Below are positions 17,455-17,583 of a DNA stretch of 31,326 nt, piece by piece (position 1 is the stretch's first letter; the number at the start of each line of letters is the position of its first letter). The stretch lies in assembly GCA_937959175.1 (NCBI GenBank), contig CALGAS010000257.1:1-31326 (forward strand), given 5' to 3'. Source of the DNA: an uncultured bacterium. Lineage in GTDB: Bacteria; Planctomycetota; Planctomycetia; Pirellulales; UBA1268. Made by a program: the position numbers and the translations under genes. The notes under the pieces were generated by a model. The model worked only from the letters and a program-made list of their open reading frames with translations. It did not search any database and had not been told where the DNA came from.

Positions 17455-17583
17455 TCCGTGCCTGACGGCCCTCGCGGTCGATTCCGGCACGGACCTCACG
17501 CCATGGGGCTTCCTTCGGGAGGCCCGGCGGCATGCCGCGAGGCGCCGCCCCCTTCACTCCGGCCGGTTCGTCGGCCGCGGTGA
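17455..17583 (+). ncRNA. Structured 3' region: four tandem hairpins, three capped by UUCG/GNRA tetraloops
   Basis: A: 17455-62 with 17486-93. B: 17506-25, c(UUCG)g. C: 17526-49, GCGA loop. D: 17554-83, UUCG loop. Confidence 0.6.

What the first reader, a model, noticed from the sequence alone, without database searches (positions are those of the whole stretch)
17455..17583. Array of four hairpins with UUCG, GNRA and UUCG tetraloops after the peptide stop
Seen: A = UCCGUGCC/GGCACGGA with an inner 5-bp stem. B = GGGCUUCC-UUCG-GGAGGCCC. C = GGCGGC(AU)GCC-GCGA-GGC-GCCGCC. D = UCAC..CGGCCGG-UUCG-UCGGCCG..GUGA. These fill almost every base between the stop codon and the terminator. Known: cUUCGg and GNRA are the extra-stable loops typical of functional structured RNAs. 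Inference: the transcript (about 400 nt for a 69-nt ORF) may be a dual-function RNA, a structured ncRNA with an embedded peptide, or an mRNA heavily protected against 3' decay.
Basis: partly seen in the sequence, partly recalled or inferred. Interest (0 to 1): 0.75.

Follow-up and report, generated by a model that had tools for sequence, protein, structure and literature searches.

The report
Structured 3'UTR spacer of polylysine micro-gene
The four hairpins are real and kept by selection, but they are a fast-evolving, lineage-specific structured spacer in the 3' untranslated region of a tiny polylysine gene, wedged between its stop codon and a much more conserved terminator module, and not a stand-alone structured RNA.

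Summary
Observation confirmed. Hairpins A-D fold as described at 17455-17583 on the + strand. The window's own fold is only modestly better than shuffles (z -2.7).

Homologous spacers from 68 divergent relatives average z -3.8, with 91% below -2. Random pieces of this genome average -0.5. Hairpins B and C show strong compensatory change: 95% of cells paired and 11 of 14 pairs with double changes. There are 56 G-U wobbles against one A-C, which fixes the strand. The element is single-copy, so it is not REP-like, and it matches no Rfam family.

The array is not deeply conserved. The distance from stop codon to terminator module runs from 65 to 208 nt among close kin and 26 to 218 nt across Pirellulales. 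Hairpin number, loops and sequence turn over freely.

What is conserved is the 3' module, ACGAGAAAG plus a GC hairpin and T-run. It is 98-100% identical within the genus. A strict pattern finds it in 170 of 401 genomes of the order, nearly always behind a K-rich micro-ORF.

Best reading (about 0.5): a passive stack of self-folding, UNCG-capped hairpins that armours and insulates a highly expressed micro-mRNA. It may also set that gene's expression above the rlmM-like gene 44 nt downstream. This scan has found the gene family before on other DNA. The 3'UTR analysis and the order-wide module are the additions here.

The parts
17205..17210 (+). -35 hexamer TTGACA of the micro-gene promoter, preceded by an AT-rich stretch
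   Evidence: Invariant in 34 genus loci (alignment). The strict sigma-70 scan finds no TATAAT-like -10, so the promoter is inferred from conservation only.
17382..17450 (+). 22-codon Lys/Ala-rich ORF ending in UGA, with SD AAGGAG at 17368-17373
   Evidence: The peptide is conserved in 33 of 36 genus genomes, and the few nucleotide changes are synonymous. Relatives encode 18-97 aa repeat variants.
17455..17493 (+). Hairpin A: 8-bp outer stem with an inner stem-loop, starting 5 nt after the stop codon
   Evidence: Homologues keep a stem here with different sequence and variable inner insertions of 30-94 nt.
17506..17525 (+). Hairpin B: 8 bp with a c-UUCG-g tetraloop
   Evidence: In alignment A2, 6 of 8 pairs show double compensatory changes and 97% of cells are paired.
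17526..17549 (+). Hairpin C: 6-bp outer stem, AU bulge, 3-bp inner stem, GCGA loop
   Evidence: In alignment A2, 5 of 6 outer pairs show double changes and 92% of cells are paired.
17550..17555 (+). Unpaired linker CCCUUC; CCUUC is invariant in the nearest clade
   Evidence: Invariant columns C101-C105 of alignment A1. Unpaired in the MFE folds.
17554..17583 (+). Hairpin D: the short form. Most relatives carry about 30 nt more inside it.
   Evidence: The outer stem is conserved with some compensatory change. The short form is shared with metagenome contig L088, so it is not an assembly artefact.
17591..17602 (+). Unpaired conserved motif CAGACGAGAAAG. Its core ACGAGAAAG is order-wide.
   Evidence: Invariant in the genus. 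The pattern ACGAGAAAG plus hairpin occurs in 170 of 401 Pirellulales genomes, against almost no hits for the reversed control. A K-rich ORF lies upstream in 54 of 59 sampled loci.
17601..17643 (+). Terminator hairpin (14 pairs, 13 of them GC) plus T-run at 17639-17643
   Evidence: It is 98-100% identical in genus genomes whose spacers no longer align.
17689..18810 (+). Downstream rlmM-like FtsJ-family methyltransferase gene, 44 nt after the terminator
   Evidence: Pfam FtsJ, and a distant RlmM match far below cut-off. It lies on the same strand downstream in 103 of 108 loci, mostly 10-60 nt after the terminator.

Best explanation
The array is the 3'UTR spacer of a small, strongly expressed mRNA that encodes a polylysine peptide. 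It is a stack of independent, locally folding, GC-rich hairpins, many capped by UNCG-type loops. The stack fills the space between the stop codon and a conserved 3' module (ACGAGAAAG, terminator hairpin, U-run).

It most likely works passively, by shape rather than by sequence, in two ways:
1. Each hairpin folds on its own as it is transcribed. The GC-rich spacer therefore cannot invade the terminator stem, the single-stranded ACGAGAAAG motif or the purine-only ORF.
2. Little single-stranded RNA is left for endonucleases, and there are several barriers to 3'-to-5' exonucleases. This lengthens the life of the micro-mRNA.

In this family the second effect would also give higher expression of the micro-gene than of the rlmM-like gene that starts 10-60 nt behind the terminator.

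Shown here: the structure, its strand, its maintenance by compensatory change, its single-copy status, its rapid turnover in length and sequence, and the far stronger conservation of the flanking 3' module.

Inferred: the stabilising and insulating effect, high expression, and co-transcription with the downstream gene.
For: - Fold and z-scores for the window.
- Family-wide structure without alignment: mean z -3.83 with 91% below -2 in 68 divergent spacers, against -0.54 and 11% for random genome pieces. Order-wide sample: mean z -2.39, with 58% below -2.
- Covariation in B and C: 95% of cells paired; 77 double-change cells against 22.7 +/- 4.6 in shuffles; slid controls 29-54% paired.
- Strand: 56 G-U cells against one A-C, and a weaker fold on the reverse strand.
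- Independent hairpins are seen in every species.
- Indels fall at hairpin tips, and whole hairpins are added or lost.
- Spacer length is 65-208 nt within the identical-module group and 26-218 nt across the order.
- UNCG loops are enriched.
- Single copy in the genome.
- The promoter -35, the SD and the terminator are conserved.
Against: - No expression, half-life or 3'-end data could be obtained, so stabilisation is inferred.
- Relatives with spacers of only 26-50 nt keep the gene and the module, so a long array is not essential.
- Within the nearest clade some unpaired bases are invariant (CCUUC linker, CGU after the stop). A purely shape-based role does not explain this.
- A terminator hairpin already protects the 3' end, so extra hairpins may add little.
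- The window's own z-score is modest.
Confidence: 0.5

Rival explanations
1. Regulatory 3' end. The array, together with the conserved ACGAGAAAG-hairpin module, is a functional RNA. It could be a 3'UTR-derived small RNA whose seed is the unpaired conserved motif. It could also be an operator bound by the polylysine peptide or by a dedicated RNA-binding protein to set the dose of the polycation.
For: - The unpaired motif next to the terminator is invariant in the genus and fixed across the order, while everything around it varies.
- The module occurs essentially only behind K-rich micro-ORFs.
- One genome (locus L028) carries a stop at codon 4 of the ORF yet keeps the RNA elements.
- AGAAAGG is complementary to the last 7 nt of this genome's 16S rRNA, CCUUUCU.
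Against: - The conservation lies in the module, not in the array that was flagged.
- There is no consistent complementarity between the motif and the gene's own leader: mean z -0.45 with scattered positions in 52 loci.
- No Rfam match.
- No processing or binding data exist.
- GAGAAAG may simply pair with the U-run to blunt the 3' end.
Confidence: 0.2
2. Neutral expansion. GC-rich insertions and local duplications accumulated in a tolerant 3'UTR. They persist only if they self-fold and so do no harm. The array has no positive function.
For: - Rapid turnover and large length range, with short spacers in many relatives.
- Tandem GGGTTCGCCC-like units inside hairpin A of some species.
- Loops are not conserved.
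Against: - Pairing is actively maintained. Double compensatory changes far exceed shuffles.
- z-scores are well beyond the genome background in 91% of lineages.
- The A-B-C-D order is kept across the nearest clade.
- This reading overlaps the best explanation, since selection for harmless folding is itself a form of insulation.
Confidence: 0.15
3. Leader or attenuator of the downstream rlmM-like gene. The micro-ORF, hairpins and terminator together tune read-through into the methyltransferase gene.
For: - The methyltransferase gene lies on the same strand in 103 of 108 loci, usually 10-60 nt after the terminator, which leaves little room for its own promoter.
- Several species lack a U-run after the hairpin.
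- In one subclade the 3' flank pairs with CAGACGAG.
Against: - In other Pirellulales families the same ORF and module sit next to unrelated or convergent genes.
- The hairpins are self-contained. No antiterminator alternative appears in the MFE or centroid folds.
- The downstream gene is not in lysine metabolism.
- An earlier follow-up on another genome reached the same negative conclusion.
Confidence: 0.1

Closest known systems
REP/BIME extragenic palindromes that stabilise the upstream cistron (for example malE-malF of E. coli; from my own knowledge)
   Same: GC-rich stem-loops sit in an intercistronic or 3' untranslated position, directly behind a highly expressed gene and ahead of a lower-expressed one. 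The proposed action is to block 3'-to-5' decay.
   Different: REPs are dispersed in hundreds of copies with a family consensus. This array is single-copy in its genome, lineage-specific, and made of four different hairpins.
3'-terminal stem-loop 'retroregulators' and other 3'UTR stabilisers of bacterial mRNAs (for example the B. thuringiensis cry gene terminator region; from my own knowledge)
   Same: Stable 3' structures are attached to a strongly expressed gene, and their effect depends on shape rather than sequence.
   Different: Those are single terminator hairpins. Here a 65-208 nt multi-hairpin stack precedes a separate, sequence-conserved terminator module.
3'UTR-derived small RNAs with a conserved seed next to the terminator (CpxQ, SroC, DapZ type; from my own knowledge)
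   Same: The strongest conservation in the transcript is an unpaired motif directly 5' of the terminator hairpin.
   Different: There is no evidence of processing, of Hfq dependence or of targets. The motif shows no consistent pairing with the gene's own leader. This resemblance concerns the module, not the array.
Lys/Ala-rich histone-H1-like proteins of bacteria (Chlamydia Hc1/Hc2) and ultra-short basic ribosomal proteins
   Same: These match the nature of the encoded product, as proposed by earlier follow-ups of this scan.
   Different: This comparison concerns the ORF, not the hairpins. No homology was shown here.

Membership tests
REP/BIME-type dispersed extragenic palindromes | Many dispersed copies per genome that share a consensus | tested here: not met
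   BLAST of the 446-nt unit against the own genome found one copy, plus one AAG-repeat hit. A short-word BLAST of each hairpin found only 12-20 nt GC-rich chance matches. The genome is 87% complete.
REP/BIME-type dispersed extragenic palindromes | Extragenic position behind a gene and a stable imperfect palindrome | tested here: met
   The array lies between the micro-ORF stop and the rlmM-like gene. The stems are stable.
Any curated RNA family (Rfam 15) | Score at or above the family's gathering threshold | tested here: not met
   There were no hits in the whole window at gathering thresholds. In the E-value mode on 17100-17750 the best hits scored 10-20 bits against thresholds of 38-97.
Intrinsic (Rho-independent) terminator | GC-rich stem-loop directly followed by a U-run | tested here: met
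   This is met only by 17601-17643. Hairpins A-D are not followed by T-runs, so they are not terminators.
3'UTR-derived regulatory sRNA | Conserved unpaired seed next to the terminator | tested here: met
   CAGACGAGAAAG is invariant in the genus, and ACGAGAAAG is fixed across the order.
3'UTR-derived regulatory sRNA | Stable processed 3' fragment and base-pairing targets | not testable with these tools
   No transcript data were available. The only target test run, against the gene's own leader, was negative.
Leader-peptide transcription attenuator | Mutually exclusive terminator and antiterminator pairings coupled to the leader ORF, with a downstream gene in the pathway of the sensed amino acid | tested here: not met
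   The hairpins are independent in every species. The downstream gene is an rlmM-like methyltransferase. The linkage is absent in other families.
Bacterial SECIS or stop-codon read-through signal | Hairpin just after UGA together with a conserved reading frame beyond it | tested here: not met
   A second in-frame UGA follows 4 codons later. Spacer lengths differ by amounts that are not multiples of three.

The most novel reading that the evidence does not exclude
The order-wide ACGAGAAAG-hairpin 3' end of the polylysine mRNA is an undescribed functional RNA module, with the hairpin array as its lineage-specific scaffold. It could be a 3'UTR-derived regulator. It could also be a docking site for the peptide, for a dedicated protein, or for the 16S rRNA 3' tail, to which AGAAAGG is complementary. 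In each case it would control the dose of a nucleic-acid-coating polycation in Pirellulales.
Probability: 0.2. Interest if true: 0.7.

Novelty: new variant of a known kind. Interest (0 to 1): 0.4.

Why it matters
The result shows that an unannotated micro-gene, widespread in planctomycetes, carries RNA architecture under two different kinds of selection. One is a fast-evolving spacer selected for shape only. The other is a sequence-fixed 3' module.

That gives three practical gains:
- Clean material for testing how 3'UTR structure sets the output of very small bacterial genes.
- A simple sequence handle (ACGAGAAAG plus hairpin) for finding these missed genes in genomes.
- A warning that stable tetraloop-capped hairpins alone do not mark a functional non-coding RNA.

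For the flagged array itself the outcome is fairly ordinary.

Tried and rejected
- **Known RNA:** Rfam at gathering and at permissive thresholds, and ARAGORN for tRNA/tmRNA, found nothing.
- **Dispersed repeat:** rejected.
- **Reverse-strand element:** the fold is weaker, and wobble pairs are 56 against one A-C.
- **Constant transcript length, or peptide charge matched by array length:** no compensation beyond lineage effects. The correlation is r = -0.44 within the identical-module group and -0.11 across the order.
- **5'-3' pairing of the conserved motif with the gene's own leader:** no signal. The long-range pairing in the window's whole-transcript MFE is not conserved in relatives.
- **Module as a general terminator feature:** other genomic matches to the short motif are chance hits inside genes.
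- **Methyltransferase ORF starting at the TTG in the terminator loop:** the frame is not conserved between species.
- **Read-through or SECIS:** rejected.
- **Transcript ends from public assemblies:** the look-up returned only the longest genomic contigs and no transcript-like records.
- **Literature:** three searches (one of them rejected for a malformed search term) and one paper found no description. A 'Rhodopirellula-1' motif is listed in PMC2864571 without detail, and it could not be compared.
- **Full-length sequence alignment:** MAFFT on the full 3'UTR misaligns hairpins A and C. Covariation was therefore counted on the B-C and D segments only.

Full report
**What is there**

The region 17455-17583 lies between the UGA stop of a 22-codon Lys/Ala-rich ORF (17382-17450) and a strong terminator hairpin. 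The terminator is at 17601-17636, with its T-run at 17639-17643.

- B has a canonical c-UUCG-g loop.
- C has a GCGA loop.
- D's UUCG sits in a G/U-closed hexaloop.

The window's own energy excess is modest:
- z = -2.67 without the terminator.
- z = -4.26 with the terminator.
- z = -7.5 for the whole 416-nt transcript.

About 9% of random 142-nt pieces of this genome reach z -2.5. The single sequence is therefore suggestive, not conclusive. Rfam and tRNA/tmRNA scans are empty.

**Relatives**

The whole unit is single-copy in its own genome. It is present in 33 of 36 genomes of the same genus.

An exact 22-mer from the terminator region recovered at least 120 more metagenome contigs, mostly from freshwater. 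With the genus loci they give 145 units and 120 distinct 3'UTRs.

In these, the distance from the stop codon to the conserved tail is 65-208 nt. Identity of the spacer to the window's spacer is only 10-56%. The terminator region is identical in the metagenome set, partly by construction. In the independent genus BLAST it is 98-100% identical.

**Is the structure selected?**

Without any alignment, 68 representative spacers (under 85% identical, terminator excluded) have mean z -3.83, and 91% fall below -2. Random genome pieces give -0.54 and 11%.

Every species folds into the same kind of stack, and the nearest clade keeps the order A, B, C, linker, D.

A sequence-based alignment of the B-C segment from 33 sequences gives:
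- 95% of cells paired.
- 11 of 14 pairs with changes on both sides.
- 77 double-change cells against 22.7 +/- 4.6 in shuffles.
- 29-54% pairing when partners are slid by 1-3 columns.

The segment borders were chosen from MFE folds, which favours the structure a little. D's outer stem is conserved with a few compensatory changes.

Wobble pairs (56 cells) greatly outnumber A-C (1 cell), and the reverse strand folds less well. The structure therefore belongs to the + strand RNA.

UNCG-type loops are enriched (131 of 267 tetraloops, 106 of them UUCG), but loop identity changes between species.

**What is conserved and what is not**

The array changes by indels at hairpin tips and by gain or loss of whole hairpins. 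The window and one metagenome relative (L088) lack about 30 nt inside D. Other lineages carry an extra hairpin after A, or tandem units inside A.

Across other families of the order the spacer is 26-218 nt. It is usually, but not always, more structured than shuffles: mean z -2.39 in 53 loci.

In contrast, the unpaired motif and the hairpin after it form a module fixed over a far greater evolutionary range. A strict pattern (ACGAGAAAG, stem, matching stem) occurs in 170 of 401 sampled Pirellulales genomes, against almost no hits for the reversed control. The hairpin sequence itself covaries freely between families.

A K-rich micro-ORF of 19-97 codons lies upstream in 54 of 59 sampled loci. Other genomic matches to the short motif are chance hits inside genes.

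The array is therefore a lineage-specific filler between two conserved parts, not the conserved part itself.

**Context**

In this family an rlmM-like FtsJ-type methyltransferase gene follows on the same strand in 103 of 108 loci. It usually starts 10-60 nt after the terminator. Some species lack the U-run. Partial read-through into that gene is therefore plausible.

In other families the neighbours are unrelated or convergent. The module therefore belongs to the micro-gene.

**Mechanism**

The pattern has five features:
- Selection on pairing but not on sequence.
- Independent hairpins that nucleate fast.
- Few unpaired bases.
- Free variation in length.
- A position behind a gene with a conserved -35 hexamer and a strong SD.

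This pattern fits a passive armour-and-insulator role best. It would keep the GC-rich spacer from interfering with the terminator, with the unpaired motif and with the purine-only ORF. It would also slow decay of the micro-mRNA, giving it an advantage over the downstream cistron. This role is inferred, because no expression data were obtainable.

Rivals:
- A regulatory 3' end (sRNA or operator). The invariance of the motif and one ORF-disrupted relative (L028) support it. That evidence concerns the module rather than the array, and pairing with the gene's own leader was tested and not found.
- Pure neutral expansion, which the covariation argues against.
- An attenuator of the methyltransferase gene, which the lack of alternative pairings and the lack of linkage in other families argue against.

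**Comparison and novelty**

Functionally the array resembles REP-type and terminator-type mRNA stabilisers. It fails the defining REP feature of dispersal.

The gene family, its pseudoknot leader and its near-invariant terminator were already noted by this scan, on this window and on other genomes. New here:
- The demonstration that the 3'UTR stack is shape-selected but fast-evolving.
- The order-wide ACGAGAAAG-hairpin module.
- The tight synteny figures for the rlmM-like gene.

I rate the flagged array as a new variant of a known kind, of moderate interest. The module next to it deserves its own follow-up.

Noticed in passing
window 17591-17643; loci L036-L051, L188-L195, L206-L265: An order-wide 3' module: an unpaired AC(A/G)ACGAGAAAG directly followed by a GC-rich hairpin and a U-run. 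The hairpin covaries between families. The strict pattern is found in 170 of 401 Pirellulales genomes and lies almost only behind K-rich micro-ORFs. Within the window's family even the hairpin and its loop are invariant.
   Followed up: partly
window 17596-17602 and own genome contig C217 (16S rRNA 3' end): AGAAAGG of the conserved motif is a perfect complement of the last 7 nt of this genome's 16S rRNA (CCUUUCU), next to the anti-SD. This could mean 30S docking, or it could be coincidence.
   Followed up: no
L028 (genome G027, contig C353): The micro-ORF has an in-frame TAG at codon 4 (MAK*), while the leader, the hairpin array and the terminator module are intact. This is either a sequencing error or pseudogene, or a hint that the RNA matters beyond coding.
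   Followed up: no
L009, L014, L016, L017 (3' flank of the terminator): In this subclade the U-run is replaced by CUCGUCUG. That sequence pairs with the conserved CAGACGAG and extends the hairpin by about 8 bp. Termination there may be weak and read-through into the rlmM-like gene high.
   Followed up: no
L053-L171 (metagenome contigs), L206-L265: The peptide varies from 18 to 97 residues through changes in the number of (V/A)AKKK-type repeats, while the 3' module stays fixed. The RNA module is under tighter constraint than protein length.
   Followed up: partly
window 17689-18810: The rlmM-like methyltransferase matches RlmM and RlmE models only weakly (about 41 bits against a cut-off of 176). 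It starts 10-60 nt after the terminator in most relatives, which leaves little room for a promoter of its own.
   Followed up: partly
L039 (G039:C94) and several order genomes: Stretches next to K-rich repeats read as N (withheld bases), so some paralogous K-rich genes could not be inspected.
   Followed up: no
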